From positions 169,756,001 through 169,820,000 of the forward strand of contig OX597816.1 of assembly GCA_951406725.2 (NCBI GenBank): a stretch of 64,000 bases of DNA. The letters are read 5' to 3'. This DNA comes from Octopus vulgaris (taxonomy: Eukaryota). The notes below the pieces were generated by a model. It was not told where the DNA came from and did no database searches. It saw only the letters and a list, made by a program, of their open reading frames with translations. Below, one piece after another: positions 1,963 through 62,076 of this stretch. The translations under genes were made by a program, and so were the position numbers. Position 1 is the first letter of the stretch, and each line of letters starts with the position of its first letter.

Positions 1963-2892
1963 TAAGGCGGCGAGCTGGCAGAATCGTTAGCACGCCGAGC
2001 GAAATGCTTAGCGGTATTTCGTCTGCCGCTACGTTTTTAGTTTGAATTCCGCCGAGGTCGACTTTGCCTTTCATCCTTCGGGATCGATAAAATAAGTACC
2101 AGTTACGCACTGGGGTCGATATAATCGACTTGATCCGTTTGTCTGTCCTTGTTTGTCCTCTCTGTGTTTAGCCCCTCGTGAGTAGTAAAGAAATTGGTAT
2201 TTCGTTTGTTTTTAGGTTCTGAGCTCAAATTCTTCCGTGGTCGACTTTGCCTTGCATCCTTTCGAGGTCGATAAATTAAGTACCAGTTGCGTACTGGGGC
2301 CGATCTAATTGACTGGCACCTTCTCCCCCAAAATTTCGAACCTTGTGCCTAGAGTAGAAAAGAATCATTACCACGCCAGGCAAAATACTTCGCGGTATTT
2401 CGTCCGTCCTTACGTTCTCAGTTCAAATTCCGCCGAAGGTCGACTTTGCCTTTCATCCTTTCGAGGTCAGTAAAATATGTACCAGTCCTGTACCGGGGTC
2501 GATATAATCGACTTAAACTCTCCCACGAAATTGCTGGCCTTGTGACTATACTTGAAACCAATATTAAAATTATTGATTGTTCAAATTGTATATAGATCAT
2601 TGTATCACCGTCTTTTTCAATAAAGGAGAATAAAGTTTTCTCCCACAGAATATTTAACAAGTCATAGCTTTTTGAAGAGAATTGATAAATATAGCTTTCA
2701 AATCGTGGTACAAGGCCAGCAATTTCGGAGATTACACCGACTCTTGTGCCTAACTTGTACTTCTTTCATCGACCCCGAACGGTTAAAAAGCAAAGTCGAC
2801 CTCCGCAAAGTCGAACACAGAACGCAAAGACGGACGAAATGCCGCTAAGCTTTTTGTCCGATGTGCTAAATATTCTACAAGCTCGCCGCTTT
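1963..2892. mobile_element. Cluster of SINE family B (Nin-domain tRNA SINE): 1963-2362 (+, dimeric), about 2370-2565 (+), about 2690-2892 (-)
   Basis: Head AAGGCGGCGAGCTGGCAGAATCGTTAGC, B-box-like GTTCAAATTCC, and Nin-like GCCTTTCATCCTTTCGGGGTCGATAAA..AAGTACCAG. Confidence 0.85.
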
Positions 2893-4278
2893 AAAAAGAA
2901 TAGGAAGGATGGGAGTTGATCATAGAACGTAACGTAATGAAGCTTAAATCCGTTTCGTATTTATTACATCCTTCAGCTGTATCCGCCAGCTTACCATCCT
3001 CAAATTATTGATGGGTATATGTTAAGACGGCGAGATGAGTACCCGAGACGTTTAACTAAGCTTCTACATAAAGTCACATGATATGAATTAAAAGACTTGA
3101 CATGATTTAAAGATATGTATAGAGAATATGTTTGCATTAAAGGTTTTTCTCAGATCTCTCGCAAAACAAAAATAATTTCCACCGTTCTCAATTCACAATT
3201 AAACTCACATCAGCATTCTGGAATTACTTCTACGATGACAATCAGTAACAAGATGACTTTTTACGAGAATATTTCCCGCAATGGCGAGAACCACCACGAT
3301 AGGTTCCACATTGCGTGTGCTCTATATTTTTGGAATATCTTAGCAAAATAGCATTTTTCAAATCTCATTTGCTTTGCCTTATTTTAAAATACAGACAATA
3401 CTGGGGTGACCCCAAGTGAAGTGGGTTTGGTGAGTTCTGTTGGACTTTGATGTGATTCTGCAGATTCGATACTTTGCGTTTTTGAAAGCATCAGTTTAGT
3501 TCTTGCTGTGAGGATATAGAAACCAGGTATAGAATAACAATTTGGCCAATCCAAATTGTTTATCTATACCTGAATCCTATATTGTTAATACACTCAAGTA
3601 GCACATTTAACAGATGATAAAAGAAAAATTCTGCAATGTTCTTGTTTTATTTGAAGAATATCTTCTTTCTCAGTTCGAGTGTCGTCACATTTAATCATCA
3701 CCGTTCCTATATTTATGAATTGAAACACTTTTCGCATAAAAGGGGAAAAAAAATCGTATTAATACTTATCTGCTGAGTTATGTATTTCTTTGGCTTTGTA
3801 AATCCATCCATAATTCCACAAATTTCTGTCTGCGTTATTTCTTACTTTATTCTACTATTATCTCTGCTTTTGACTATAGAATTTGGATTTTTCTTTTGTC
3901 AAGTTTGCTTATTGCTTTTATGTAATTATAGTTTTTATTTTCTAGCCATCATTATCGAAGTGATCGAGTTGATGCATATAAAGTTAGTCAAGATGTTTCC
4001 AGAGAATCAAATATCACCGATTTAGGAAACTCAACATGTCTCCAGTGTTGATAGCACAAACTAGTAAATATATATATAAACAAAAAAACAAAAAAACATT
4101 TGTACAAGGTGATACATTTTTCCATAAAATTCTTATAACACACCATACACAAATATTTTCATATTCGCAAAAACTTACGCCAGTAAGCTAACTTGAAACC
4201 CTCCAGAGTAAAGGATGAAATATAATTCTGCCGTTTGACAGACTTGCACACACACATACACACACATATAATCCTATA

Positions 4279-4945: not shown

Positions 4946-6501
4946 CTAGATGCATTCATGTAGTTTTCAGACATGTTAGGGATTACAGATTACTGTGATG
5001 TTTGTATATCATTATAATTCCTCTAATAATCAGACCTACCAACTTTTCTTATTCCAGATGGAGAGTAGCGGCTGTAACGGTACTAAATATCTTGCTAAGC
5101 ACTACTTATAGCCGATTAGACTGCAGAATGCTGTCAGGACGTGAAGGCAATTTGGAAGCTCGATATGCAGTAAGATTCTGTAGACGAAAATGCAACAGAA
5201 ACTTGTGAAATGTCCCAGACGGCATATGGGGGTAACTAGTATGAGCACAAAAGGCGCGACAAAGCAGGTTCACCGGGTAGCTCATGCCAATTCCATTTTT
5301 TGACAGCAGGGGCATCATCTTCCACTAGATTTCCTCTTGTCAGGCGGTCAACAGTGCGTACTATATGGTGGTTATGAAAAGTGGTTGTGTGGTAAGTAGC
5401 TTGCTTACCAACCACATCCTTCTGGGTTCAATCCCACTGCGTGGCACCTTGGGCTAGTGTCTTCTACTATAACCTCGGGCCGACCAAAGCCTTGAGAATG
5501 GATTTGGTAAAGGGAAACTGAAAAAAGCTCGTCGTATATATGTATATGTATATATATATGTGTGTGTGTTTGCGTGTCTCTGTTTGTAGACGGAAACTGA
5601 AAGAAGCTTGGAAGTGTGGTGAGAAAATTAGTTCTTAAGCACATGGTTCTGGGTTCAGTCCCACTGTGTGGCACCTTGGGCAAGCCTCTAGCTGACCAAA
5701 GCCTTGTGAGTGGATTTGGCAGACAGAAACTGAAAGAAGCTTGGAAGTGTGGTGAGAAAATTAGTTCTTAAGCACATGGTTCTGGGTTTAGTCCCACTGC
5801 GTGTCATCTTGGGCAAGTGTCTTCTACTATAGCCTCGGGTCGAACAAAGCCTTGTGAATGGATTTGGTAGACGGAAACTGAAAGAAGCTCGTCGTATATA
5901 TGTATATGTATATATATGTGTGTGTGTGTGTTTGCGTGTCTGTGTTTGTCCTCCCAACATTCTTTGACAACCGCTGCTGGTGTGTTTACGTCCTCGTAAC
6001 TTAGCGGTTCGGCAAAAGAGACCGATAGAATAAGTACTAGGCTTACAAAGAATAAGTCCTGGGTTCGATTTGCTCGACTAAAGGCGGTGCTCCAGCATGG
6101 CCGCAGTCAAATGACTGAAACAAGTAGAATAGTAAGTTGAAGAAATTTCGTTGTAAAAGGCCAGAACACCTGCATCAACCCACAGTTCCATCCTGATAGA
6201 GGTGGGCATCAGATTTGCTTCTCCACCCAACAATCCAGACCTTTTTGGTAGGTTTATTTATTCAGATTTTTGGATGAGTTATTCCCCAAGGTGAAGGAGA
6301 AAATGAAGGAGACTGTGACAATGGTCCTGGACACTTCCACCGTTGAAGACCTGTGTGGTGCCTTCACGACTTAGCTGGAGTGCTGCAACGAGTACAGTGA
6401 AGTCAGAGACTCTTACTTTGAAGGAGATTTGAGTTTTTGTATTCTTTGAAATTAATAGATGACTCTCCTCAATATCTCAAAACTTCTGGAATGCATTTTG
6501 T
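4946..6501 (+). mobile_element. Degraded mariner transposon interrupted by a SINE A composite
   Basis: Peptide remnants EARYAVRFC..ENATETCEM, FFDSRGII..VNSAYY and KKFRCKRPE. Imperfect TIR-like ends ATGCATTCATGTAGTTTTCAGA / TCTCAAAACTTCTGGAATGCAT. Confidence 0.7.
5380..6135 (+). mobile_element. SINE A composite with tandemly repeated head segments
   Basis: Three successive head/CORE segments (about 5380, 5610, 5745) precede one complete tail. Confidence 0.85.
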
Positions 6502-12656: not shown

Positions 12657-12760
12657 ACAGTCCTACTGCGTGGTACCTTAGGTGAGTGTCTTCATCACGA
12701 TGCCTCGTGAGTGGATTTAGTAGACGGATTTTCGTAGAAGGAAGCAGAAAGAATCCGACG
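12657..12760 (+). mobile_element. SINE A 5' half (3' half at 15785-15905)
   Basis: CAGTCCTACTGCGTGGTACCTTAGG..GTGAGTGGATTT. The family continues GTGTTTGTGTTTATCCCC at 15785, after the Tx1 insertions. Confidence 0.65.
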
Positions 12761-12764
12761 CCTC

Positions 12765-12922
<158 letters not shown>

Positions 12923-12928
12923 CTTCTG

Positions 12929-12995
<67 letters not shown>

Positions 12996-13950
12996 CTGAC
13001 CCGCCTGTTCAGGACGACTTTCGGGCCAGGGCCCATGGACAACTTCCAGAGATCCTTGGCCTGGCAGTGCTACCGAGAAGCGCTACCCGTTCGGGATAAG
13101 CTCTACAGACACGGCTCGAGAAACACGGGGCCGACCTGCCCGAGATGCGGTCAGAGCGACGAAACCGTTCTGCACGCACTCGTTCAGTGTCCAACAATTT
13201 CCGACCTGTGGGCTTATGTCGAACAACTGCTGTCACGTGTGGGACGAGTCGGTTTATCAGCTGAGTCTATCGTCAATATTGTCACGCCTCCTTCCTTCAA
13301 ACGGGAAGGAAGAGCTATTTTCATCATCCTTGTGGCTATGGCGAAAGAATGTATCTGGTGGACGCGTCTGAAAGGATTGGAGACAAACACTTTCCTCTCT
13401 GGTCAATCTCTCATCAACTTCTTCAAGTACCACTTGAAAAGGAAAGTGAGAGTAGAGAGGCAAGTTTTGTCTAGCGAATGTTTTAAAAAAAGATGGGTGA
13501 ATGTAGCAAGAATGGCACGTATGAATGACGAAGCCACCTTGAGCATAGTCCTATGAACCCAGAAATCGAAAACAGAGAGTTGCTTATTTGCAAAAAAAAA
13601 AAAAAAAAAAGAAATATAAAATGTGACTTCATTGACCGAGGTTACCGTGGTCTTTTCCGTAGGCTTTCCTTTCCACGGGTAAACCTCACCTGTCCTCCCC
13701 TTTACACTTCATATTGACATTTCTGTGATAACGATCCCTATTGATCAATTTTTTTTCCTCCCCCCCCTTTTTTTTTAACCCCCCCTTTTTTGTCCTCCTT
13801 CTCTCCTTTTACGATCCCTTTTGATCGAAACTCCCCCCTTCCATTTTTTTATTTTTTTTTTTATTTTTTTTTTTTCTAACCCTTCAAAAGAAAAGCTCTA
13901 CCTTGTAATTTGTTCTATCTGTGTGCAGCCCTGTGTGGCTAATAAAGAAA
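12996..13950 (+). mobile_element. 5'-truncated Tx1/L1-clade LINE, copy 1 (ORF2 C-terminus plus 3'UTR)
   Basis: zf-RVT/CCHC CPRCGQSDETVLHALVQC, stop at 13556, pyrimidine-rich 3'UTR ending AATAAAGAAA. Confidence 0.9.
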
Positions 13951-13971
13951 CATATCTATCCTTCTATCTAA

Positions 13972-14019
<48 letters not shown>

Positions 14020-14020
14020 A

Positions 14021-14298
<278 letters not shown>

Positions 14299-15746
14299 CT
14301 AAAAGGTCGAGCGGAGGTGGCGAACACGTACATCGCGTCCGTCATCTACTACCGCCTGACCGTCGTACCTTGTCCCGACCCTACCATCACCAAACTACAA
14401 CGCATCCTCTTTCGCTTCTTGTGGAAAGGATGCGTCCCGATGGTCAGGCGATCCATTTGCTGTCAACACCCGTTAAAAGGAGGGCTGGGCATGCCGTGGT
14501 TGATGATGCGCAGACACGCGCTGAGACTGCGACATCTCTGGCTCTATGTAGACGACGGTGAACAGGTGTGGTCGCCGTTTGTGAGGCACGCTTTCCCGCA
14601 GCTCGTCTCCATGACCGAACTGCAGTCGTGGATCAAAAAGAGGCCGAGGAAGGGCGAATGGCACCGCGAGTGTCGCGTTGCTCTCAAGCAACTCTGCCGT
14701 CCTGGGTCGACCTTAAGTGACTTCAACACAACCAAAGCATTCTATAGGGGTTTAGTGGAGGGGAGGTACGACGACGAGCTCGGGGCGAACCTGGACGTCG
14801 ACGAGGAGTACCTGACCCGCCTGTTCAGGACGACTTTCGGGCCAGGGCCCATGGACAACTTCCAGAGATCCCTGGCCTGGCAGTGCTACCGAGAAGCGCT
14901 ACCCGTTCGGGATAAGCTCTACAGACACGGCTCGAGAAACACGGGGCCGACCTGCCCGAGATGCGGTCAGAGCGACGAAACCGTTCTGCACGCACTCGTT
15001 CAGTGTCCAACAATTTCCGACTTGTGGGCTTATGTCGAACAACTGCTGTCACGTGTGGGACGAGTCGGTTTATCAGCTGAGTCTATCGTCAATATTGTCA
15101 CGCCTCCTTCCTTCAAACGGGAAGGAAGAGCTATTTTCATCATCCTTGTGGCTATGGCGAAAGAATGTATCTGGTGGACGCGTCTGAAAGGATTGGAGAC
15201 AAACACTTTCCTCTCTGGTCAATCTCTCATCAACTTCTTCAAGTACCACTTGAAAAGGAAAGTAAGAGTAGAGAGGCAAGTTTTGTCTAGCGAATGTTTT
15301 AAAAAAAGATGGGTGAATGTAGCAAGAATGGCACGTATGAATGACGAAGCCACCTTGAGCATAGATCCTATGAACCCAGAAATTGAAAACAGAGAGTTGC
15401 TTATTTGCAAAAAAAAAAAAAAAAAGAAATATAACATGTGACTCATTGACCAAGGTTACCGTGGTCTTTTCCGTAGGCTTTTCTTTCCACGGGTAAACCT
15501 CACCTGTCCTCCCCTTTACACTTCATATTGACATTTCTGTGATAACGATCCCTATTGATCAATTTTTTTTCCTCTCCCCTTTTTTTTTTAACCCCCCTTT
15601 TTTTTGTCCTCTTTCTCTCCTTTTACGATCCCTTTTGATCGAAACTCCCCCTTCCTTTTTTTTTTTTTTTTTTAACCCTTCAAAAGAAAAGCTCTACCTT
15701 GTAATTTGTTCTATCTGTGTGCAGCCCTGTGTGGCTAATAAAGAAA
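14299..15746 (+). mobile_element. 5'-truncated Tx1/L1-clade LINE, copy 2
   Basis: Open frame LKGRAEVANTYIAS..FRFLWKG..KGGLGMP..CPRC..H..C. About 99% identical to copy 1 over the shared coding part, with a 1-bp insertion near the stop. Confidence 0.92.
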
Positions 15747-15910
15747 TCTATCATATCTATCTATCTATCTATCTATCTATCTAAGTGTTTGTGTTTATCC
15801 CCATCGAAACTTAACAATCGGTGTCGGTCCGTTTATCCCCACGAGTAGGGGAATCGATAAATTAGCTTGACCCCCACTCTTATGAGTGAAACAAGTAAAA
15901 GTTAAACGAT

Positions 15911-20554: not shown

Positions 20555-20961
20555 TTTCTCTCTTTCTCTCCTTTTACTTGTTTCAGTCATTTTGACTGCG
20601 GCCATGCTGGTGAACCGCCTTTAATCGAACAACTCGACCCCGGGACTTATTCTTTGTAAGCCCAGTACTTATTCTATCGTTCTATTTTGCCGAACCGCTA
20701 AGTGACGGGAACATAAACACACCAGCATCGGTTGTCAAGCAATGCTAGGGGGACAAACACAGACACACAAACATACACGCACATGCATATATATACATAT
20801 ATACGACGGGCTTCTTTCAGTTTACGTCTACCAAATCCACTCACAAGGCTTTGGTCGGCCCGAGGCTATACAAGAAGACAGTTGCCCAAGGTGCCACGCA
20901 GTGGGACTGAACCCGGAACCATTTGGATGGAAAACAAGCTACTTACCACACAGCCACTCCT
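20555..20961 (-). mobile_element. SINE A, full length
   Basis: Complete reverse complement of family A head, microsatellite and tail. Confidence 0.9.
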
Positions 20962-22740: not shown

Positions 22741-22827
<87 letters not shown>

Positions 22828-22828
<1 letters not shown>

Positions 22829-23200
22829 GGTGCAAAAGTGGCTGTGTGGTAAAAAGCTTGCTTCCCAACCACATGGTTCCAGGTTCTGATTCACTGTGCC
22901 AACTTGGGCAAATGTCTTCTGCTATAGCCATGGGCCGACCAAAGCCTTGTGAGTGGATTTGGTAAACGGAAACTGAAAGAAGCCCGTCGTATATCTATAT
23001 TTGTGTGTCTGTGCTTCTTCCCCACCCCATCGCTTGACAACCTTTGTTAGTCTGTTTACGTCCCCGTAACATAGAGGTTCGGCAAAAGAGACCGATAGAA
23101 TAAGTACTAGGCATACAAAGAATAAATCCTGGAGTCGATTGGTTCGACTAAAGGCAGTGCTCCAGCATGGTTGCAGTCAAATTCCTGAAAGAAATAAAAT
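22828..23200 (+). mobile_element. SINE A, full length
   Basis: Family A head to tail, flanked by TA tracts. Confidence 0.88.
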
Positions 23201-23380: not shown

Positions 23381-23769
23381 TTTCTTTATTGTCCATAGGG
23401 GGCTAAACGTAGAGGAGACGAACATGGACAGACCTCGGCTGAATTTGATCTCAGAACATAAAGACAGATGAAATACATGTTTCTTTACTACCCACAAGGG
23501 ACTAGACACAGAGAGGACAAATAAGGACAGGCAAACGGAATAAATCGAATATATCGACCCCAGTGCGTAACTGGTACTAAATTTATCGACCCCGAAAGGA
23601 TGAAAGGCAAAGTCGACCCCAGTGCGTAACTGGTACTAAATTTATCGACCCCGAAAAGATGAAAGGCAAAGTCGACATCGGCAGAATTTGAACTCAGAAC
23701 GTAACGGCAGACGAAATACCGCTAAGCATTTCGCCCGGCGTGCTAGCGTTTCTGCCAGCTCGCCGCCTT
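23381..23769 (-). mobile_element. SINE B with internal 61-bp duplication and doubled Tx1-like tail
   Basis: Nin domain duplicated at about 23553-23676. Ends ..CAATAAAGAAAT next to (TA)n. Confidence 0.8.
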
Positions 23770-23774
23770 GAAGA

Positions 23775-24422
23775 GTATTTTTCTGTCGAATGACAGATTT
23801 TCGAAATGAAATACTTCCGACGGATTTCATTATAGAGTGTCCTAGCTACAACGTCATGTCTCATCGGTAGATAATACCGTGATGACATTTTCGGAAAATC
23901 ACTTATGATGTGGGTGATTTCTTCAGTGTGAACTCCACAAAGTCTGCATCGGTTGCCACTCTTTACGACTTTACCTGCATGTCTATGCCTTTTGTATATC
24001 AGGTACTTGGTTGATATTTCCTATTCCTGGATTGCAAGCGCATATCCTTTAAAGTGGGGGGTAGTAATCCGGCTATTGGTCCATGATACACTGCTTTGAT
24101 GATCGATGTTACTCTCATCACGGATATTTCTAGTAACATATCCATGTATAGTCTTCTGCTCATATAAGCTCATCCTTTCATCTGAGGATACGTTGCGGTA
24201 GAGTCGTGCGACTTCCTTAGGCATGTATTCTAGGTTATCAGACAAAGAGTGTTGCTCAACAAGCTGCCTTCCAAGTCTTATGATGTTATAAGCCACATGT
24301 ATGCAAACTTTGTCAAGAGAAGCACTTCGAGACTTGGTGGTTAAAATATGCTGCCGAAGGGATATGATGCGACATTCAAAGGCTATACAAATTGAAACTA
24401 TTATATTACTAAATGCCTTCAA
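23775..24422 (-). mobile_element. R4/Dong-like RLE LINE fragment (degraded)
   Basis: HFKGYALAIQE*EISTKY..CRLCGVHTEEITHIIS..RHDVVAR (CCHC and RHD motifs). Confidence 0.8.
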
Positions 24423-24846
24423 GGTTGTGACCTGGCAGAAACACTAGCAAGCAGGGAAAAATGTTTCGCGTCATATTGTTCATCTTTACGGTCTCAGTTC
24501 AAATTCCGCCGCGGTAGATTTTGCATTTTATCCTTTTGGGTTCGATAAAATGTACCAGTGAAACACTGGGGTCGATGCAATCGACTTACTCCTCTCTTAA
24601 AATTGCTGGCCTAGCGCCAAAATTTGAAACTGCTATTACTGAATGAGGTGGCAGAATTGTTAACGCGCTGGACAAAATGCTTAGCGGCATTTCTTTCTAC
24701 TTGACGTTCTGACTCCAAATTCTACCAAGGTCATTCTTTCGGGATCAATATAATAAGTTCCAGATGAGCACTAGAATCAATGTAATCGACTCTCACCCTC
24801 CTACAAAATTTCAGGTGTTGTGTCTAAATTGGAAAGGATTATTATT
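24421..24846 (+). mobile_element. Two degenerate SINE B copies
   Basis: Head and Nin-domain remnants at about 24421-24640 and 24645-24846. Confidence 0.7.
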
Positions 24847-30154: not shown

Positions 30155-30461
30155 ACTCTTTACTCTTTACTCTTTTATTTGTTCCAGTCATTTGACTGTG
30201 GCCATGCTGGAGCACCGCCTTTAGTCGAGAAAATCGACCTTAGGACTTATTCTTTGTAAGCCTAGTACTTATTCTGTCGGTCTCTTTTGCCGAACCGCTA
30301 CCAAATCCACTCACAAATCCACTCACCAAATCCACTCACAAAGTTTTGGTCGGCCCGAGGCTATAGTAGAAGACACTTGCCCAAGGTGCCACGCAGTGGG
30401 ACTGAACCCGGAACTATGTGGTTGGTAAGCAAGCTACTTACCACACAGCCACTCCTACGCC
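30155..30461 (-). mobile_element. SINE A with internal deletion and triplicated CAAATCCACTCA
   Basis: Family A head and tail on the minus strand. Confidence 0.85.
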
Positions 30462-30799
30462 TATATATATATTATTTTTTCTATCAGTAATTAAAAGCAG
30501 AACAAGGTGAACTGGTTCATTCCAAGGTCAAGGTCAGCAATATTATTGATGGCTTGTAGTGGTGAACACATTTGATCTCTACTGACCGCAAAGGTGTGAC
30601 GCTTCTTTTGTCCCCTGATCGCACACGAATGCAAAGCCCCAATGTTGATCTCCTCCTCACTAACTGCCGAACCTATTTACAGAGCTGTGGAATTTGGTCT
30701 ATTCACCAAGTTGCTTCTCTTCCTTATATCATCCTCTCCAACCCTCAAATATTTATGATGCTTTCAAAAACAAGCCAAAAGCCGAAACTAAACAACGTT

Positions 30800-33868: not shown

Positions 33869-34979
33869 CTTCTTTATTGACCACAAAGGGTTTACATTAA
33901 GTAAAGAATGGACGGTACAGGATAAAACAAAGAATGTGTATGTGCATGTGTGTGATTGTTTTGTTGTGAGTGTTTTGCGTGTAAAAAGGTTTAACATATT
34001 AAAATAAAAAGAAAATTTACGATGTATGATCATCAATAAGGAGAAGACATTCGAGGGATACTCATGGATATATCTCATAAAACCACAGGAGCCTAGATTT
34101 CTGAGGCAAGAGCCTTTTCTCATTTTCTCTTTTCCGATTACGGGCGTCAGCTCAGGGCAGACATGTACTCGCATCATTCTCACCACTCTCATACACCTTT
34201 CATCAACATGGCTGGATCACAACTCTTTCCTCTCCACTCTTATTTCCCGCCTTCTTTTAACATGGAAGGACAGACTGGCTTTAGATTCCTGATGGCCATA
34301 GCGAAAGTTTCACTTGAAGAAGTTGATCAGGGATTGGCAAAAGAGAAAAGTGTTTGCCTTCAGCCCCTTCAATCTCGTTCAAAATACAACCTCCTTCGCT
34401 ATCGCCACCAGGCATATATAGTCAGCCTGTCCTTCCAGGTTAAAAGAAGGTGGCGGAACGATCTTCACGATGGATTCAGTCCCACATCAGATGTTCGACA
34501 AAACCCATAGGTCAGCAATGCTCGGGCACTGTACGAGTGCATGCTGAACGGTTTCGTCGCCCTGCCAACATCTCGGACATGCTCGGCTGACGACCCTTCC
34601 CTACCTGTATAATCTATCTCGGAAAGGAAATGTTCCTTGGTAGCACTGCCAGACCAGAGACTTTTGGAAGTTATCCATCGGTCCCAGGCCGAAAGTTCTC
34701 CGGAAGAGAGCGGCTAGCTGATCTTCTTCGACACCCATGGTCTACCAGAGAATGTCGTCGCACTTTCCCTCCACTAATATTCCATAGAACGCTAAAGTGG
34801 CATTTCCCCCTATCGCAATGTCCAACTGGCTGGGGGCTGTGAGCGTCCTGTCAAAAGCTTTATATTGATCTAAATTGATCGGAGACCCTCCTTGCCAAGT
34901 TCTTTAGCCACTTTCTCTATGATGTATCGCACGAGGTGGATGTTATCATGGATAGATCTTTTCGGGATGGCGCATGTCA
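33869..34979 (-). mobile_element. Older internally deleted Tx1-type LINE related to the TATC copies
   Basis: TCAIPKRSIHDNIHLVRYII (RT) joined to GPMDNFQKSLVWQCY..CPRCWQGDETVQHALVQC. 3' end ACCCTTTGTGGTCAATAAAGAAG. Confidence 0.85.
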
Positions 34980-35280
34980 TCATATGTACGGGATACTTTT
35001 TGTTTATGGGGAAAATGGAAAAATAAGAGTGAATATTCATTTTATGAGAGTTGTGTATTAAGTCTATAAAATTGTGTGTAAAGTATATGAAGTGTATATA
35101 CAAAGTGCATTAAGTAATCATCGCATTCAAATTTCTTTCACTTTTCAATGAGTAGCAGATGAGTGGCCATCTTTCCACACAATACACAACACTTGATACG
35201 CTTTCAGGTTTTTGGGGATAAAGTTTTCAGAAATAACCCAATAGGTTTACCATTAACTCCGTGAAACACGGGTCAGCTAG
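34980..35280 (+). mobile_element. Probable short Helitron
   Basis: Hairpin CCGTG-AAA-CACGG (35259-35271) followed by CTAG|T at 35277-35281. The 5' TC at 34980 is tentative. Confidence 0.5.
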
Positions 35281-36448: not shown

Positions 36449-38193
<1,745 letters not shown>

Positions 38194-38252
38194 CTTATTC
38201 TTCTTATTCTTCTTCTTATTATTATTGTTATTATTATTATTTTATTATTATT

Positions 38253-38668
38253 AAGTCGGCGATCTGGCAGAATCATTAGCACGCCGGACGAAATACTTAG
38301 CGGTATTTCGTCTGCCGCTACGTTCTGAGTTCAAATTCCGCCGAGGTCGACTTTGCCTTTCATCCTTTCGGGGTCGATAAATTAAGTACCAGTTACGCAC
38401 TGGGGACGATATAATCGACTTAATCCGATTGTCTGTCCTTGTTTGTCCCTGTGTTTAGCCCCTTGTGGGCAATAACGAAAACAAACGTTAGCATATCGGG
38501 CGAAATGCTTATTGATATTTCGTCTGCCACTACTTTCTATGTTCAAGGTCCACTTTTCCTTTTATCCTTTCGGGGTTGATAAATTAAGAACCAGTCAACT
38601 ACTGGGGTCGATGTAATCGACTATCCCGCTCCCTTCAAATTCCAGAGCTTGTGCTTATAGTAGAAAGG

Positions 38669-38670
<2 letters not shown>
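38253..38670 (+). mobile_element. Dimeric SINE B with (TTA)n tail
   Basis: Head, Nin domain, Tx1-like tail, then a second monomer ending TAGTAGAAAGGATTATT. Confidence 0.88.
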
Positions 38671-40640: not shown

Positions 40641-41219
40641 TGTATACGTGTCACACTTTTTTTCTTTATCTAGATTTCTATTCTCGTGGTCTAACTAAAT
40701 AAAGGAGAAATTCAAGATGTTGCATGAACAAAAGTTGGTTTCAAATTCAAATTTCTTCCAGCCATACCCAACTCCTCTCTTCCGCGGTAATAACCTTAAC
40801 TGTATTATGCACAATATAAACAAGGGCAGTATTTCTAACTTCGTGAATCAATTCTCCAATGTTGGCATAGTAATTCTGATGAGTAAGCTATCGTATCGAA
40901 TATTTTTTTAAAGGATTTTGCTCACACAATTGTTGTATTGATACATCTCCATTTCGAATATTATTTTATCAGTCCTCAATCGACCGTATAAGCCTTCGGT
41001 GTTTTAATATCAGCCTTTGCACTCATAGAAGGTATTTTTTCTGTTCCTCAGCAAAGGAAAACATTGGGTGAACATTTCGGACAGTTATTTCACGATATTA
41101 CACGAATACTATCAGCTGCATTTTCTTCTGCCGAGTTTTTCTGAACCTTATCATTATTCCTCCACCGCACCAAATACCTGGCATGGAACAAAATTTGGTA
41201 TCATCATTATTTTTATTAC

Positions 41220-41360
41220 TGACTTCAAATGCCGCCGGGGTCGACTTCGCCTTTCGTCCCGTCGGGGTCGATAAATTAAGTACCAGTTACGCACTGAGGT
41301 CGATGTAATAAACTTAATTCCTTCCCCAAAATTTGAGGCCTTGTTCCTATAATAGAAAGG

Positions 41361-41404
<44 letters not shown>

Positions 41405-41800
41405 GGCGGTGAGCTGTCAGAAACTTAGCACGCCGGGCGAAATGCGTATCAGTATTTCGTCTGCCACTACGTTCTGAGTTCAAATTCCGCCGAGGTCGAC
41501 TTAGCCTTTTATACTTTCGGGGTCGATTAAATAAGTACCAGTTACGCATTGGTCTCGATATAATCGACTTAATCCGTTTGTCTGTCCTTGTTTGTTCCCT
41601 CTGTGTTTATCCCCTTGTGGGTAGTAAAGAAATAGGTATTTCGTCTGCCGTTACGTTCTGAGTTCAAATTCCTCCGAGGTCGACTTCGTCTTTCATTCTT
41701 TCGGGGTCGATAAATTAAGCACCAGTTGCGTACTGGGGTCTATCTAATCGACTGGCCCCTTCCCCCAAATTTCAGTCCTTGCACCTATAGTAGAAAGGGT
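41220..41800 (+). mobile_element. SINE B copies (41220-41362; dimer 41403-41800) with TTA tails
   Basis: Nin domain and both tail types. Confidence 0.88.
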
Positions 41801-51130: not shown

Positions 51131-51335
51131 TAACAACAATGACTTCAAATTTTGGCACAAGGCTAGGAATTTCAGTGGGAGGGACGTAAGTAGATTACAT
51201 CAACTCAAATGTTCAACTGATACTTATTTTATCGACTTCTAAAAGATGAAGTGCAAAGTCTACCCCACCGGTATTTAAGCTATATAAAAAAAAATGCCGC
51301 TAAGCATTTTTCTCGGTGTACTACATTTTCTGCCT

Positions 51336-51427: not shown

Positions 51428-51960
51428 ATAATAATAATAATTATGATGACAATCTTGGTGATGATGGTGATGATGGTGACAATGATAATGAAATTATTAC
51501 TATTTTTATTGTTGTTGTTGTTCTGTATTAGATGGTTTTCCTTTTGACTCATAAAATGTTATTTGTTTTTGCTGGAACTGCTTTGTTTTGGTTTATTATT
51601 TTATGGAGTGGAGACATTTCGTTTTAATAGGGCCCCTACTTCCTTGTATAAAATGTGTGTGGAGGGGGAGCAACAAGTGTGGTCGCTAAGGGGCATCGCT
51701 TTGACATCAAAACAATTTCAACGCATCAAAAATTTTAATGTATAAAAAAACTATGTTGATATCAGAACACACGCTCATTACACTTTGGATTAATAGGAGA
51801 GAAAATGATTCGTCTGACTAAGGCACTGAACAGCAGCGATTTCTCTTACATAATCTCAAACGGCATTGGTTTGACTACCATCAGTACAAGTGAGGGAAAA
51901 AGAGAATACGCGAAAATAACGACAATGCTAACAACAATTACAACAATAACATCTATAACA

Positions 51961-52360
51961 GGCGCAGGAGTGGCTGTGTGGTAAGTAGCTTGCTAACCAA
52001 CCACATGGTTGCGGGTTCAGTCCTACTGCGTGGCATCTTGGGCAAGTGTCTTCTGCTATAGCCCCGGGCCGACCAATGTCTTTTGAGTGGATTTGGTAGA
52101 CGGAAACTAAAAGAAGCCTGTCGTATATATGTATATATATATATATGTGTGTGTGTCTGTGTTTGTCCCCCTAGCATTGCTTGACAACCGATGCTGGTGT
52201 GTTTACGTCCCCGTCACTTAGCGGTTCGGCAAAACAGATCGATAGAATAAGTACTGGGCTTACAAAGAATAAGTCCCGGGGTCGATTTGATCGACTAAAG
52301 GCGGTGTTCCAGCATGGCCGCAGTCAAATGACTGAAACAAGTAAAAGAGAGTAAAATAGT
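51961..52360 (+). mobile_element. SINE A, full length
   Basis: GGCGCAGGAGTGGCTGTGTGG head to GTAAAAGAGAGTAAAA tail. Confidence 0.9.
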
Positions 52361-52566
52361 ATAACAAAATCGGTAGCAGCATCAAAAGCAACAAAAACAA
52401 CAGCAGAAGTAACAGCAACAACATTGATAGCAGTAACAACAGCGACAACAATAGCAACGGTAGCAACAACAACAAAAACATCTCCATTAGCAACAACTAC
52501 AAGAACAAAATTAGTGACCTCAGCAGCAACAAAATAGCAACGATAATAATAGCAGCGATAATAATA

Positions 52567-52797
52567 AAGGCGGCGAGCTGGCAGAACCGTTAGCACGCCG
52601 GGCGAAATGCTTAGCGGTATTGCGTATGTCGTTGCGTTCTGAGTTCAAATTCCGCCGAGGTCGACTTTGCCTTTCATCCTTTCGGGGCCGATAAATTAAG
52701 TACCAGTTACGCAGTGGGGTCGATGTAATCGACTTAATCCATTTGTTTGTCCTTGTTTGTCCCCTCTATGTTTAGCCCCTTGTGGGTAATAAAGAAA
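52567..52797 (+). mobile_element. Monomeric SINE B ending in the Tx1-like tail
   Basis: Ends GCCCCTTGTGGGTAATAAAGAAA. GATAATAATA occurs on both sides (possible TSD in low-complexity DNA). Confidence 0.9.
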
Positions 52798-53129
52798 CAG
52801 ATAATAATAGCAGTACCAGCAACATTAATAGCAGCATCAACAACAATAGCAACGATGACGACAAGCGGTAAGGGACAATTCTAAAGGCGAGCAAATTTTT
52901 TGCTGGCATGGCGGTGAAGGCGACGAAATACTTCTCACTCTCCCTAAACAAAAGGGAATCACGCCTGACACATGCGAGACAAGTTGTGAAAGTGAACGGG
53001 AGGGGTACGCATGTTACAATCCCAGCCGAAAATTTCGAAGCAACTGTACAGAAGACGGTGCTGTATCACTGTGTTGCTAAAACGTGACGCCAAGTAGTAG
53101 CAATAGAAACCCAGATGGAAAGAGCCTTC

Positions 53130-53630
53130 AAGGCTCTGTAGGGTAGACATAGGCAGAGGCAGGTCTGTTCCGGAGTCCTTTGGTGTTAGGGCACATTAGT
53201 GATGTCCAGAAATTTTCTGCCGAGCAATATTATCGGAGATCACTGCCGGTTTGGAATAAATTCTACAGGCATGGAAGTGCCGTCAACATTACACACAGAG
53301 CGATGAAACCCTTCCGCGCACATTCACTCATTAGCAGAGCATTGCTGGCCTGTGAAGTGATATTGAATACTTGTTGTCGCATATAGGAAGAACCCAGGTT
53401 TCTCCTGAGTCCACCGTCAAGATCGTTCTGCTGTCTTCATCGCTTATGTGGCCTTACAGAAAGGGAGACACCTTACACTTTGGCTAAGCATTCAACTCTT
53501 TCGAGTTTCACTTGAATAGGAAAGTGAAGGTGGAGAGTAAAGTGCTGCCTCACATCAAATTTATCAAAAAGTGGATGAGTGTGGCAAAGTTGATCCAGGT
53601 TAATGGGTCTGTTCGGACAAAAATTTAAAG
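53130..53630 (+). mobile_element. Degraded Tx1-type ORF2 C-terminus
   Basis: QYYRRSLPVWNKFYRHGS and FHLNRKVKVESKVL..FIKKWMSVAKL align with the TATC copies. Confidence 0.7.
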
Positions 53631-56625
53631 AAACCTTTGAGTGTTAGTGAAAAGCAGATCAGCAGTCTAATCATAGATACAGCTTTGCTACAGAAGGCGT
53701 GGGCTCCTTCTTACCCAATTTCAGGCCCAAACTGCTGGGCACGTTTGGGATGGAATTTTTCGGACCCTATGATAAGCATATGGAAGTAGAAGGTAGTCAA
53801 TACGATAGACTGTCTTGATTTAGTCGAGTGGATATGTTGTCAGCAACCGGTGTGTCGATTGTCCTTTCTTATTTCTTTAGGGGAAATTATTTTAATCATA
53901 TTTCTGTTTAATATGCCCATCTAATTATTTTGTGTAATTATAAGTACTTTTAACCGACCTTGTTGTGTAAGGTTTCTTCTTTTCCCATTGTATATATAAG
54001 AATTTGTTATATATCTCCATGTCTTTGCATTTTCATAAAAAATTGTTAATGTATGAATGGACCATGGTGGCAATTTAAACGAACCAATTAGAAGCTTTTT
54101 ATTATAATTAAACGCATTTTTTTCTGTAATCAACATTTTTATTATTTCGAAGTTAAGGGTCGTGAATTGATAGAATCGTTAAAACTGGTCAAAAAGGAAT
54201 TGTGGCATTTATTCTGGAACGTAAATATCATATTTCAAATCCCACGGTGGTCAACTTTATCTTTTCTCCTGGGGTCGATTTGTAGTCAAGAACGGAATTC
54301 GAAGTTATCAACTATTGGCACCTTACCTGCAAAACATTTCAGGCATTGTACCTATGTTGTTGCATAAACATTAGAAATATTACTGCTGTTCTCTTCCCCA
54401 CAATTTTTCTCAGTTTACATGCCTAATCAATAATAGCTAAAAGTTTTGTTAAAACAAAAAAACAAGGAAACAAGCAAACGCAAGTTGCTTCCATTAAATA
54501 TATTTGCTGAATGAAGATATTTACAAGATATTTACTACTAAAACCTTGAATGAATTCAGCATTAATTTTCTTTGTTAGCCTTTCAAAAATTTATATTATC
54601 AAGAAGGTTATCGTACAGCTATAGCACAAAGTGAAAGATATATTTGTTAGAAACTAGCTAAATACTTTAACATTAAAAAGGCAATTAGTGAAAGAAATAT
54701 GCTATTAATAGCATTCACAGTTTTACTCCATGTTTCTCTCTTTTGTAACTCCTCAGACACCATTATATATAGAATTCTTTAAGAAATGATAAAATATAGA
54801 AATGTTCTTTCATCAGAATACATAAAACTGAAACCCATTTAGTCTGTCTATTTTGTTTGATATCGACTAATATTGAAATGCTTCCTAAAGTTCCCCTGAA
54901 ACGCCATTTACATTATATCAGTTCAAAACATTCCTTGTAGATAATCGGTTATCGTTTCCTTATAGTATGAAAAATATACTGACAAAGAAACACTGACTTC
55001 ACTGAAGTTTTCTTTCATATATGCAACGTAGAATTATTGAATACTGTATTGAATTTTAATTTCTGTATATTCGATCTCTGGTTCTAATCACATATTCTTG
55101 TCATGTTTAGCAAATAACAGTCCGTTTCTCGTAAAAATGCGCGTTCATTCAAACTTCGGATTGGAACTTACTCTCGATTAGGATAAGTTCCACGTTCAAA
55201 ACTGCAACACTGTTTTTCTCCTGAGTCGTAATGTGCAACAGTTATTTACCATTGATGAAGAGCACGAAGAATTAAAATTTTTTTTTTTAGTTACTTTATC
55301 AACTCGTACACGGAGCTGCTGAAGAAGTAATATCAGATTCAAAATTAAATGAGTCAGTTTTGAAATCTGTCAATGCACCTACGTGGTATTTCGACTTGCA
55401 AGAAATAGCAGGCATAATTCTCTCAATTCGTTGCCCTGAAAAATGAATTGATTTGAAGATGTGACTAAATTTGAAAGAGACTGAATAATGACGTCCAATA
55501 TACACTATAACTGGAAAATGTCACATGGTCACTGCTGGAATACTTTTGGTCATAGGGCTGCACAATGCGGACTAACCGGAAGTAAACAGCAACAAATTGG
55601 CGAATATGAATAAAATTTAAGAGGAAGCAATTTGTTAAATATTAAAATTTGTTAAATATGTCAACTATGTACTACTTTGAAAATTTTAAACGCTTTTATA
55701 TGACTTGATGATAAAGGCCTTAAATGTTAGGGATAATTAAATAAGAAGTAGGGATATTTCTGCTTCTCTCAGTGACATTTCAACTGAAATAGAAACTGAT
55801 TTTCCACTACAGTAGACGCGGAAATATTGCAAGTAGTTTTACAGTCAACAATGAACGGATGTCACAGAATTTATTCTATTTGTGTAAAACTATATTGCGT
55901 GGAAGTTTATATGCGTGTGATACAAGTGTAGAGCCAATATCACAGCAATAAATAATGTAATGAATCATTGTTATATCTTTAAGGTGTCAATGTTACTATT
56001 CTGAAACAAGGGGTTTTACAGCAATTGCAGTATGAAGTCATTGGTTATGTGAAGTTCAAATATAAACGTTTCATAGAATCGTTCTATAAATAACATATTA
56101 ATCGATCATCATTTCTAGTGTTACATCATCGGCAATTAACGAAATTGTTCTCATTGATCTAAGAAGAACGATGCTATGTAGACTGCCAATGTGAAGCCAT
56201 TAACCAAGCCAGCTTTTAACGTTAAATCCGTTGTCATAAATTATTTGAAAGACGGAAATCAGGTCCTAATGTTTAATTAGTTACTTCAATAGTTTACTGA
56301 GTAACAACATTGATTTCTAGTTACTATATTGATTTGCAGAAGACTATAAATTTACTGCAAAAATGTGTTTTAGTTTCCAGTACATGCCTAATACAACATT
56401 GATTTCATAGACACAAATTTGCAGGGACGGTATAGAAGATTGAATCGCCTTGGTATATGCCTTGGTACATAATTTATCGAACTTGGGAGTTTGAAAGTAC
56501 AATCCTTTCCCAAAAGGATTGGACATAGAGCATACAAATATAAATTTTCATACTACAAGTCCAATGATTCTTCTTTTCTGTTAATCCAATCCATCCATAC
56601 TTGAATATCAATATTACGTTACGTT

Positions 56626-56825
56626 AAGGCCGCGAGCGTGCAAAATGCTTAGCGGTATTTCGTCCGTCTTTACATTCAGAGTTCAAATTCCATCAAGGTC
56701 GGCTTTACTGTTTATTCTTTCGAAGCCGATAAAATAAGTACCAGTTGAGTACTGGAGTCGATATAATCGACTTTCCCCCTTTACTGATTTTGCTGGCCTT
56801 GTGCCAAAATTTGAAAGCAATATTA
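56626..56825 (+). mobile_element. SINE B (degenerate; similar relics at about 39320-39460 -, 51140-51335 -, 54155-54360 +, 61895-62075 +)
   Basis: Head and Nin-domain remnants. Confidence 0.7.
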
Positions 56826-61203: not shown

Positions 61204-61885
61204 TTAGAGAATGTGATCGGTTGATGTCAACACAATTTTTCGAGTCTCATAAATTACTGGTTTCCTAAGGTTCTGGTCGAAGAATTTGTCAGTACTTTTC
61301 TTGATCATTCCCAGGGCACCTACAACAAGAGGGATGGTTTTAGATTTGAATTGCCACGTCCTGGATATCTCAATCTCAGGATCTTTATAGTTTGACAGTT
61401 TTTCAAATTCCTTTGCTGAGATGTTTCTATCAGTAGGATCTGTCATATCAATTAACAAGCATGTTTTTCGTCTTAGGTTCCTGATGATGTTTGGTCGGTT
61501 ACCGTTTATTTGCCTGTCTGTGTGTCTCCCATAATCCCATAGGCTGGTAACATTCTCTCACTCAGTGACTGGATGGTATTCATATGAGTTTAAGGCGACG
61601 AGCTGGCAGAAACGTTAGCATTCTGAGAGAAATGCTGAGCGGTATTTCGTCTGCCGCTACATTCTGAGTTCAAATTCCGCCGAGGTCGACTTTGCCTTTC
61701 ATCCTTTCGGGGTCGATAAATTAAGTACCAGTTACGCACTGGGGTTGATATAATCGGCTTAATCCGTTTGTCTGTCCTTGTTTGTCCTCTCTGTGTTTAG
61801 CCCCTTGTGGGCAGTAAAGACATAGGTATTCATATCAGTTCTTAGGGTGCAAGATATCATAGTGACGGCATACGCCCCAGTGTCA
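61204..61885 (-). mobile_element. Dong RLE fragment interrupted by SINE B
   Basis: HWGVCRHYDILHPKN*YEY|HPVTE..NRPNII..CLLIDMTDP..KLSNYKD..IPLVVGALGMI. Confidence 0.85.
61591..61824 (+). mobile_element. Monomeric SINE B with 16-bp TSD
   Basis: GGTATTCATAT(G/C)AGTT at 61575-61590 and 61825-61840. Ends at the Tx1-like tail. Confidence 0.9.
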
Positions 61886-62076
61886 ACTCGATAGAGCAGC
61901 GAGCTGGCAAAATCATTACCACGCCGGACAAAATGTTTAGCGGCATTTCGTCCGTCTTTACGTTCTCAATTCATATTCCGCCGAGGTCGACTTTGTCTTT
62001 CATCCTTTCGGGGTTGATAAATTAACTACTCATTAAATTTCAGGACTTGTGCCTTTGGTAGAAAGGATCATTATTA

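What the first reader, a model, noticed from the sequence alone, without database searches (positions are those of the whole stretch)
52751..52797. Nin-domain SINE carries the 3' end of the Tx1 LINE: a candidate SINE/Tx1 partnership
Seen: the SINE B tail CCTTG---TTTGTCCCCTCTATGTTTAGCCCCTTGTGGGTAATAAAGAAA aligns with the Tx1 terminus at 13901-13950 (CCTTGTAATTTGTTCTATCTGTGTGCAGCCCTGTGTGGCTAATAAAGAAA), 38 of 47 identical by eye. A small stem-loop before AATAAA covaries: AGCC/GGCT in the LINE, GCCC/GGG(C/T) in the SINE, ACC/GGT in the older Tx1 at about 33880. SINE copies at 52567, 61591 (16-bp TSD) and 23381 stop at this tail. Known: SINEs borrow partner-LINE 3' ends, mostly from L2, CR1 and RTE. 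Inference: a stringent-type Tx1 lineage mobilised this abundant SINE.
Basis: partly seen in the sequence, partly recalled or inferred. Interest (0 to 1): 0.8.

Follow-up and report, generated by a model that had tools for sequence, protein, structure and literature searches.

The report
Octopus SINE shares Tx1-like LINE tail
A very abundant short repeat in this likely octopus genome ends in the same ~47 bases as a neighbouring L1/Tx1-group jumping gene, which suggests it likely borrowed that lineage's copying enzyme, a pairing not found for an animal L1-group element in the papers I could search.

Summary
The match is real. The last 47 nt of the SINE (52751-52797) equal the last 50 nt of an L1-group LINE at 38 positions, and both end on the same base. 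For 5 of 6 SINE copies, 0 of 1000 shuffled LINE UTRs scored as high; for the sixth, 3 of 1000. A profile built from SINE tails alone ranks the LINE ends next (E 1e-6). Public contigs show the SINE is very abundant and that 52797 is a recurrent junction.

Four corrections. (1) The Nin label fails: the Nin motifs I tested are absent from the body. (2) The stem is not shown: folding and covariation are no better than shuffles, and the SINE stem is shifted one base. (3) The tail is internal in 4 of 6 copies (dimers), and 13 other head/body units lack it. (4) The LINE here is younger than the SINE, sits in (TATC)n and is 76% alike, so the donor is likely a sister family. Tx1 versus other L1-group clades was not tree-tested.

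Most likely: a tail swap by template switching gave a tRNA-type SINE a Tx1-like 3' end, and that lineage then copied it. No such animal pair was found in print here.

The parts
52567..52797 (+). SINE monomer: tRNA-like head with A- and B-box-like motifs (about 52567-52660), body to 52734, T-type tail 52735-52797
   Evidence: 5' boundary 52567 has 2464-3128 contigs with unrelated AT-rich flanks in three runs; boxes read by eye; ARAGORN and Rfam found no tRNA
52751..52797 (+). LINE-like segment of the SINE tail, 38 of 47 identical to the LINE terminus and co-terminal with it
12996..13950 (+). 5'-truncated young L1-group (Tx1-like) LINE, copy 1, in (TATC)n; 3' UTR 13557-13950, terminus 13901-13950
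14290..15746 (+). 5'-truncated young LINE, copy 2, in the same (TATC)n array, truncated at a different point; open C-terminal ORF2 frame with zf-RVT; terminus 15697-15746
   Evidence: 557/560 identical to copy 1
33870..34986 (-). older, decayed copy of a related LINE family (68% DNA identity in ORF2); shares only the 21-nt terminal motif 33870-33890
   Evidence: 3 and 6 of 500 shuffles; E 0.14
61592..61822 (+). SINE copy ending at the T-tail, with a 16-bp duplication (one mismatch) at 61575-61590 and 61825-61840 whose first six bases equal the dimer junction
1964..2360 (+). dimeric copy: full unit with internal T-tail (1964-2193), then body from position 50 with a different tail
41403..41800 (+). 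dimeric copy with the same junction: internal T-tail to 41632, second unit ending in the (ATT)n-type tail
38253..38670 (+). T-tailed unit (38253-38480) joined to a more diverged unit from position 19 with the (ATT)n-type tail
23381..23769 (-). composite: unit with internal body duplication and internal T-tail (to 23480), partial second unit (positions 50-96), second T-tail 23433-23381 followed by (AT)n; no duplication found

Best explanation
A tRNA-like SINE carries, after base 52734, a tail whose last 47 nt match the 3' end of an L1-group LINE that is likely Tx1-clade; the tail was likely gained by template switching, and a sister family of this LINE likely copied the tail-ending SINEs. Shown: the co-terminal homology; one head and body with three alternative tails attached at the same body position; very high abundance in three runs; recurrent junctions at 52797; one clear target-site duplication. 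Inferred: (1) the donor's reverse transcriptase began on its own RNA and jumped onto an RNA of the older SINE, replacing the older tail; (2) Pol III transcribes the new SINE and the donor's ORF2 protein binds the LINE-like end and primes target-primed reverse transcription at or a few bases past AAAGAAA, with no poly(A) tail in any of the copies here; (3) the donor was a sister family, older than the young (TATC)n family here and with another target; (4) later the unit fused to a second body with the (ATT)n-type tail, and this dimer spread as a unit, probably by the LINE that reads that terminal tail. Recognition is predicted to rest on the terminal ~21-47 nt; a small hairpin is possible but not shown.
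For: Co-terminal 38/47 match with shuffle controls. A profile built from six SINE tails alone hits 7 SINE tails, then the two young LINE ends (E 9.8e-7), then the older LINE end (E 0.14), ahead of the 6 remaining background hits. No match to the Dong/R4-like LINE end. The best local match between the 3' ends of the two LINE families is this terminal motif (3 and 6 of 500 shuffles), which favours a LINE origin. 13 head/body units lack the tail, and 1460-2178 contigs per run leave the body at 52734 into the (ATT)n-type tail: tail exchange at a fixed point. 230,596-437,164 contigs laid in each of three runs, with depth over the tail about equal to depth over the 3' body (contig depth is not a copy number). 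4 of the 15 best-supported joints shown start exactly at 52797 and lead to four different SINE positions. 16-bp duplication at 61592. The full-length relative P0003 has APE endonuclease, RT and zf-RVT, and its best solved match is human L1 ORF2p (236 bits against 61 for R2). Relatives at 56-82% identity, two from Argonauta hians, show a diversified sister lineage. L1-Tx1 is the only L1-group entry among recently active O. vulgaris LINEs: 13 families (PMC13282606 Table 1).
Against: Only one young LINE family (two near-identical copies) and one decayed copy carry the tail; a third decayed relative (53159-53628) gave no significant tail match (105-424 of 500 shuffles). The older copy shares only 21 nt, and the same 23-letter pattern turned up in 7 unrelated loci of public collections, 6 of them one homologous prokaryote-type coding sequence, so the short motif alone is weak. 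No structural support. Only 2 of 6 full copies end cleanly at the tail and only 1 has a convincing duplication. Targets differ: LINE in (TATC)n, SINE ends in an (AAT/AGC)-rich tract, unique DNA and (AT)n. The 12- to 17-fold depth drop after 52797 in three runs marks the end of homology with this copy's flank and cannot tell termination from dimer continuation; loose ends at 52797 were displayed only for run X16, where they read into the dimer junction. No genome was held, so no other octopus LINE 3' ends could be compared. No assay.
Confidence: 0.6

Rival explanations
1. Fossil tail: the tail came once from an L1/Tx1-group LINE, but most later copying was done by another LINE that reads the terminal (ATT)n-type tail of the dimers, so the LINE-like tail is mainly a passenger.
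For: Tail internal in 4 of 6 copies; three share one junction, which recurs in runs X2, X3, X7 (joint 52797 to 52616, 2-6 contigs) and in loose ends of X16. The three dimers read AGTAAA where the LINE reads AATAAA. 13 units lack the tail.
Against: Copies 52567 and 61592 end at the tail, 61592 with a 16-bp duplication; the 23381 composite ends in a second tail; joints from 52797 lead to four different positions, as expected of a true terminus.
Confidence: 0.2
2. Reverse or third-party origin: the LINE family took its 3' end from a SINE inserted in its UTR, or both took it from a third, unsampled LINE clade.
For: The SINE is far more abundant than the LINE, and the LINE family here is younger than the SINE copies. 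Only one other LINE clade end was available as a control.
Against: A second LINE family 68% identical in ORF2 has the same terminal motif about 250 nt after its ORF; more diverged SINE relatives have other tails, so the tail is the newcomer in the SINE; no SINE body lies upstream of the tail in the LINE.
Confidence: 0.13
3. Chance or convergence: a T/G-rich stretch before AATAAA looks alike in unrelated elements.
For: Short, T-rich, includes a polyadenylation-like hexamer; the 23-letter core occurs in unrelated collections.
Against: Composition-preserving shuffles, profile E 9.8e-7 and exact co-termination.
Confidence: 0.07

Closest known systems
ZmSINE2/ZmSINE3 with LINE1-1_ZM (maize, sorghum) and SINEX-3_CR with L1-1_CR (Chlamydomonas); Ohshima 2012 PMC3472496, 2013 PMC3747384
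   Same: tRNA SINE sharing about 45-50 terminal nt with an L1-clade LINE; read there as stringent 3'-end recognition. These are the only three L1-tailed SINEs among 58 pairs.
   Different: Plants and algae, not animals; there the hairpin has compensatory changes and -10.8 to -17.7 kcal/mol, here folding and covariation do not beat shuffles; here neither element ends in poly(A) and the LINE sits in a microsatellite.
SINEU with Tx1-Mar in crocodilians; Kojima 2015 PMC4494074
   Same: A SINE proposed to be moved by Tx1-clade LINEs, so a Tx1 partner as such is already in print.
   Different: SINEU has snRNA heads and poly(A) tails, was linked by shared target and 5' heads, and the paper says no LINE shares the SINEU-1 3' terminus. 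Here the link is a shared 3' sequence, the head is tRNA-like and the targets do not match.
Mosaic SINEs of bivalves with CR1, CR1-Zenon, L2 and Nimb tails; Nishihara 2016 PMC4824008, Martelossi 2024 PMC11481361
   Same: One head and body, several exchangeable LINE-derived tails, in molluscs.
   Different: No Tx1 partner: the word does not occur in the main text of Martelossi 2024.
Kibi and Koshi (Tx1 clade; (TC)n and (TTC)n targets), as described in Kojima 2015
   Same: Microsatellite-embedded L1-group LINE.
   Different: Target here is (TATC)n, from two adjacent copies only; no SINE partner is named for them in the text read.
Octopus OK, OR1, OR2 SINEs (Ohshima and Okada 1994; paper not seen, details recalled)
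   Same: Abundant tRNA-derived octopus SINEs; the roughly 400-bp dimer here has about the length I recall for OK or OR1, so the SINE itself is probably a described family.
   Different: Identity untested: SINEBase supplements were unreadable. OR1/OR2 are cited as CORE SINEs; no partner LINE appeared in the passages read.

Membership tests
Nin/Deu-domain SINE | Central ~120-bp Nin domain as in Lottia_Nin, Lsa_Nin, Nla_Nin | tested here: not met
   Four 11-12-nt motifs taken from the mollusc Nin sequences in the Matetovici supplement were sought at up to 2 mismatches: two had no hit in any SINE copy, one hit only head regions of three other-tailed copies, one hit one partial unit (23441) and two places flanking a deleted copy. 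Only short partial likeness by eye. A motif test, not a profile test. Against my reading: Marino 2022 names tRNA-Deu as a main octopus SINE class from automated annotation; which family that is I could not tell.
tRNA-derived SINE | Short, dispersed, high-copy, non-coding repeat with fixed 5' end | tested here: met
   231 bp; 6 full copies in 64 kb; 230,596-437,164 contigs in three runs; fixed 5' end with unrelated flanks.
tRNA-derived SINE | tRNA-related head with Pol III A and B boxes | tested here: inconclusive
   Box-like motifs by eye with long spacing, and no run of four T in copies 52567 and 61592; ARAGORN 0 genes, Rfam 0 matches at E 10, head fold z -0.11.
L1-group LINE (L1/Tx1) | ORF2 with APE endonuclease, RT and C-terminal zinc knuckle, closest to L1 ORF2p | tested here: met
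   zf-RVT in the window frame; P0001 (70% identical) has RT and zf-RVT; P0003 (38% to the window frame, 43% to P0001) has all three and matches L1 ORF2p at E 9e-69 against R2 at 5e-16. The window copies lack EN and nearly all RT, so this rests on relatives.
Tx1 clade | RT phylogeny groups with Tx1, Kibi, Koshi, Keno rather than other L1 lineages | not testable with these tools
   No named Tx1 reference came back from three protein searches or two Atlas searches.
Tx1 clade | Target preference (many members) | tested here: inconclusive
   Both young copies are flanked by (TATC)n on both sides with different 5' truncations, but they share one array and could be a local duplication.
Stringent SINE/LINE pair (UnaSINE/UnaL2 type) | Shared, co-terminal 3' sequence | tested here: met
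Stringent SINE/LINE pair (UnaSINE/UnaL2 type) | Conserved stem-loop with compensatory changes | tested here: inconclusive
   A 3-4-bp stem can be drawn, but 0 of 9 tails fold better than shuffles, covariation does not beat shuffles, and SINE and LINE registers differ by one base. Nine sequences give little power.
Stringent SINE/LINE pair (UnaSINE/UnaL2 type) | Matching target preference, duplication length and activity period | tested here: not met
   For the LINE family in the window: (TATC)n against other flanks; 99.5% against 87-92% identity among copies. A sister family is not excluded.
Stringent SINE/LINE pair (UnaSINE/UnaL2 type) | Tail needed for trans-retrotransposition | not testable with these tools
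   needs a cell assay

The most novel reading that the evidence does not exclude
First animal L1/Tx1-group lineage shown to recognise a specific 3' sequence and to drive a major SINE burst. Its ORF2p would even prime at the tail when the tail lies inside a longer dimeric RNA: copy 61592 has the dimer-type AGTAAA tail and ends exactly where its target matches the first six bases of the dimer junction. That would put stringent recognition in the animal branch of the L1 group and name an engine of the octopus SINE expansion.
Probability: 0.3. Interest if true: 0.72.

Novelty: new variant of a known kind. Interest (0 to 1): 0.52.

Why it matters
Ohshima proposed that ancestral L1-clade elements recognised a specific 3' end and that poly(A)-only recognition arose later in parallel; his three supporting SINEs are from plants and algae. 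An animal SINE with an L1/Tx1-group tail would be the missing comparison and is directly testable. SINEs make up 11.6% of the O. vulgaris genome and the papers read name no partner LINE for them, so this points to a candidate engine. A family with one body and three tails in one genome is also a good system for following partner switching. The principle of SINE/LINE tail sharing is old, and the SINE is probably a described family.

Tried and rejected
No own genome was held. Protein-based locus searches found no relative in metagenome (103 stretches, 0 confirmed) or viral contigs (15 stretches, 0 confirmed). Tail and body patterns: 0 in viral contigs; 6 loci in metagenomes and 1 in genomes, none related to the LINE or SINE; six are one homologous prokaryote-type coding sequence; all dropped as chance. 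Cluster membership of the related proteins could not be looked up, so their source organisms stay mostly unknown. No RNA holder was on record among the 24 runs listed; expression untested. Only 4 of the 20 runs holding the LINE were laid, and only on the SINE. Atlas and NCBIfam gave no clade name. The third LINE fragment has a motif-like stretch near 54060-54085 by eye, not significant, so not counted. Rejected: the stem covariation; the Nin label; the 10-bp repeat at 52567 as a sure duplication; dimers as independent insertions into older SINEs (no leftover head upstream of 1964, 41403 or 23769). No partner for the two other tails was found in the window. Earlier scan notes: none for this genome or these sequences. 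Literature searches for a published SINE/Tx1 shared tail; only SINEU came up. Repbase, Dfam, the Zenodo library of PMC13282606, SINEBase supplements, file 1 of the supplements of PMC4824008 and PMC4758252, Albertin 2015 and Ohshima and Okada 1994 were not available; any of them could already name this SINE, its domain or this pairing.

Full report
1. Observation. Aligning the whole SINE copy 52567-52797 to the whole 395-nt LINE 3' UTR gives SINE 52751-52797 against LINE 13901-13950: 38 identities, one 3-nt gap, both ending on the last A of AAAGAAA. All 6 full tail-bearing copies align to the same place; 0 of 1000 shuffled UTRs scored as high for five and 3 of 1000 for copy 38253. A blastn of the SINE against the window returns SINE relatives and, apart from them, only the two LINE ends (E 8e-5 and 3e-4). 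A profile from six SINE tails alone ranks 7 SINE tails, then both young LINE ends (E 9.8e-7), then the older LINE end (E 0.14), then 6 background hits. The Dong/R4-like LINE end at 36811-36600 gives nothing.

2. The LINE. Two 5'-truncated copies (12996-13950, 14290-15746) lie in one (TATC)n array, truncated at different points, 557/560 identical, without poly(A). The open frame has zf-RVT. Relatives run from 56 to 82% identity, two of them from Argonauta hians, which with short Octopus bimaculoides hits fits an octopod host. A full-length relative, P0003, has endonuclease, RT and zf-RVT and is closest to human L1 ORF2p among solved structures. So the L1 group is established through relatives; Tx1 is likely from the microsatellite setting and from L1-Tx1 being the L1-group entry among active O. 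vulgaris LINEs, but no named reference was available for a tree. An older copy (34986-33870, minus; 68% DNA identity) shares only the last 21 nt (3 and 6 of 500 shuffles); a third fragment (53159-53628) has no significant tail. The 23-letter core also occurs in 7 unrelated public loci, so the older copy is supporting, not strong, evidence.

3. The SINE. A body profile gave 22 hits: one is a motif shared with another SINE family, two are halves of one copy, leaving 20 units. Six carry the LINE-like (T) tail after body position 168, one partial unit carries it after position 96, and 13 lack it, most ending in one of two other tails. Laying four public runs on 52555-52815 placed 433,716, 437,164, 230,596 and 379 contigs. 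The 5' end at 52567 is fixed with unrelated flanks; 1460-2178 contigs per large run leave at 52734 into the (ATT)n-type tail; depth over the T-tail is about that of the 3' body; 4 of 15 joints shown (960 not shown) start at 52797 and 6 at 52734-52736. Tails are thus exchanged at a fixed point and 52797 is a recurrent junction. These tables do not count how many copies end there: the depth drop only marks the end of homology with this copy's flank, and the loose ends shown at 52797 (run X16 only) read into the dimer junction.

4. Ends of copies. 52567 ends at the tail, with a doubtful 10-bp repeat (131 of 2000 local controls as good). 61592 ends there with a 16-bp, one-mismatch duplication (7 of 3000). 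23381 is a second tail on a composite, followed by (AT)n, no duplication. In 1964, 41403 and 23769 the tail runs through one shared junction into body position 50; in 38253 into position 19. The three same-junction dimers and 61592 read AGTAAA; 52567, 38253, 23381 and the LINEs read AATAA. The duplication of 61592 begins with the six bases that begin the second dimer unit. I infer that this copy came from dimer RNA primed just behind the internal tail by microhomology; it is one copy, and a monomer with a matching target preference is the alternative.

5. Structure. Nine tails fold no better than shuffles. The LINE stem and the SINE stem differ by one base in register; neither shows covariation above shuffles. 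One both-sided change separates the two LINE families. The hairpin is a hypothesis.

6. Nin. The mollusc Nin sequences in the Matetovici supplement supplied four motifs; they do not mark the SINE body. The label is not supported, with the caveat that automated annotation lists tRNA-Deu as a main octopus SINE class.

7. Mechanism. Most likely (0.6): template switching put an L1/Tx1-group 3' end on an existing SINE body, and a sister family of the LINE seen here copied the tail-ending units; dimers ending in another tail then spread, probably with another LINE. The homology, modular tails, abundance and junctions are shown; direction, donor, enzyme and stringency are inferred. Rivals: fossil tail (0.2), reverse or third-party origin (0.13), chance (0.07).

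8. What is known, and what I saw. Ohshima 2012 (PMC3472496, part 1 of 3) and 2013 (PMC3747384, passages and part 1 of 2 of the tables section): 58 pairs, three with L1 tails, all plant or algal, none Tx1. Kojima 2015 (PMC4494074, parts 1-4 of 5): SINEU moved by Tx1-Mar, inferred from targets and heads, no shared 3' end. Passages only: Kojima 2018 (PMC5786205) and Martelossi 2024 (PMC11481361), both with 0 occurrences of Tx1; Nishihara 2016 (supplement searches); Matetovici 2016 (supplement search 55, file 4 part 3 of 5 in 56); SINEBase; Luchetti 2016; PMC13295347; PMC5203782; Petrosino 2022; Marino 2022. Bonar 2026 (PMC13282606): parts 1-2 of 3. Ohshima and Okada 1994: not seen, recalled. Nine searches found no SINE sharing a 3' sequence with a Tx1 LINE; Repbase and Dfam entries could not be checked.

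9. Verdict. A real feature and a new variant of a known kind: a tail-sharing SINE/LINE relation with a partner group not documented for animals in what I could read. Interest 0.52.

Noticed in passing
window 12740-15780: Two 99.5%-identical LINE copies with different 5' truncations sit in tandem in one long (TATC)n array: possible (TATC)n-specific element, a target not named in the Tx1 text I read.
   Followed up: partly
window 61575-61840: The duplication of this copy starts with the same six bases as the dimer junction and the copy has the dimer-type AGTAAA tail: possible priming just behind an internal tail.
   Followed up: partly
window 2193-2563, 24422-24845, 38483-38670, 41218-41360, 41632-41800, 51144-51334, 56637-56822, 61896-62070: Same SINE head/body with two other tails, one ending in (ATT)n; often in tandem with each other. 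Partner LINEs unknown; none found in the window.
   Followed up: partly
window 51960-52350 (copies near 700-1610, 5380-6130, 20560-20960, 22820-23200, 30170-30480): A second abundant composite SINE with tRNA-like head and internal (AT)n(GT)n; its second half shares a motif with the end of the SINE B body (profile hit 1497-1557, E 0.009).
   Followed up: no
window 36600-38241 (-): Dong/R4-like LINE (name by recalled motifs): 476-aa open C-terminal frame, ending in a long (AAT)n tract.
   Followed up: partly
window 53159-54085 (+): Third, heavily decayed relative of the L1/Tx1-like LINE with a faint tail-like stretch near 54060-54085.
   Followed up: partly
window 23613-23618 (-): Internal tandem duplication of body positions 93-157 at a GTCGA microhomology; the same composite joins position 96 to a second tail.
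   Followed up: no
protein P0126: A 64%-identical relative of the LINE protein is filed under a Herbaspirillum MAG; likely host DNA in a bacterial assembly.
   Followed up: no
proteins P0003, P0007, P0011 and others: A large unnamed group of 1150-aa relatives at 36-45% identity in ENA assemblies, some clusters with hundreds of members; host unknown; their 3' ends would test how old the tail is.
   Followed up: no
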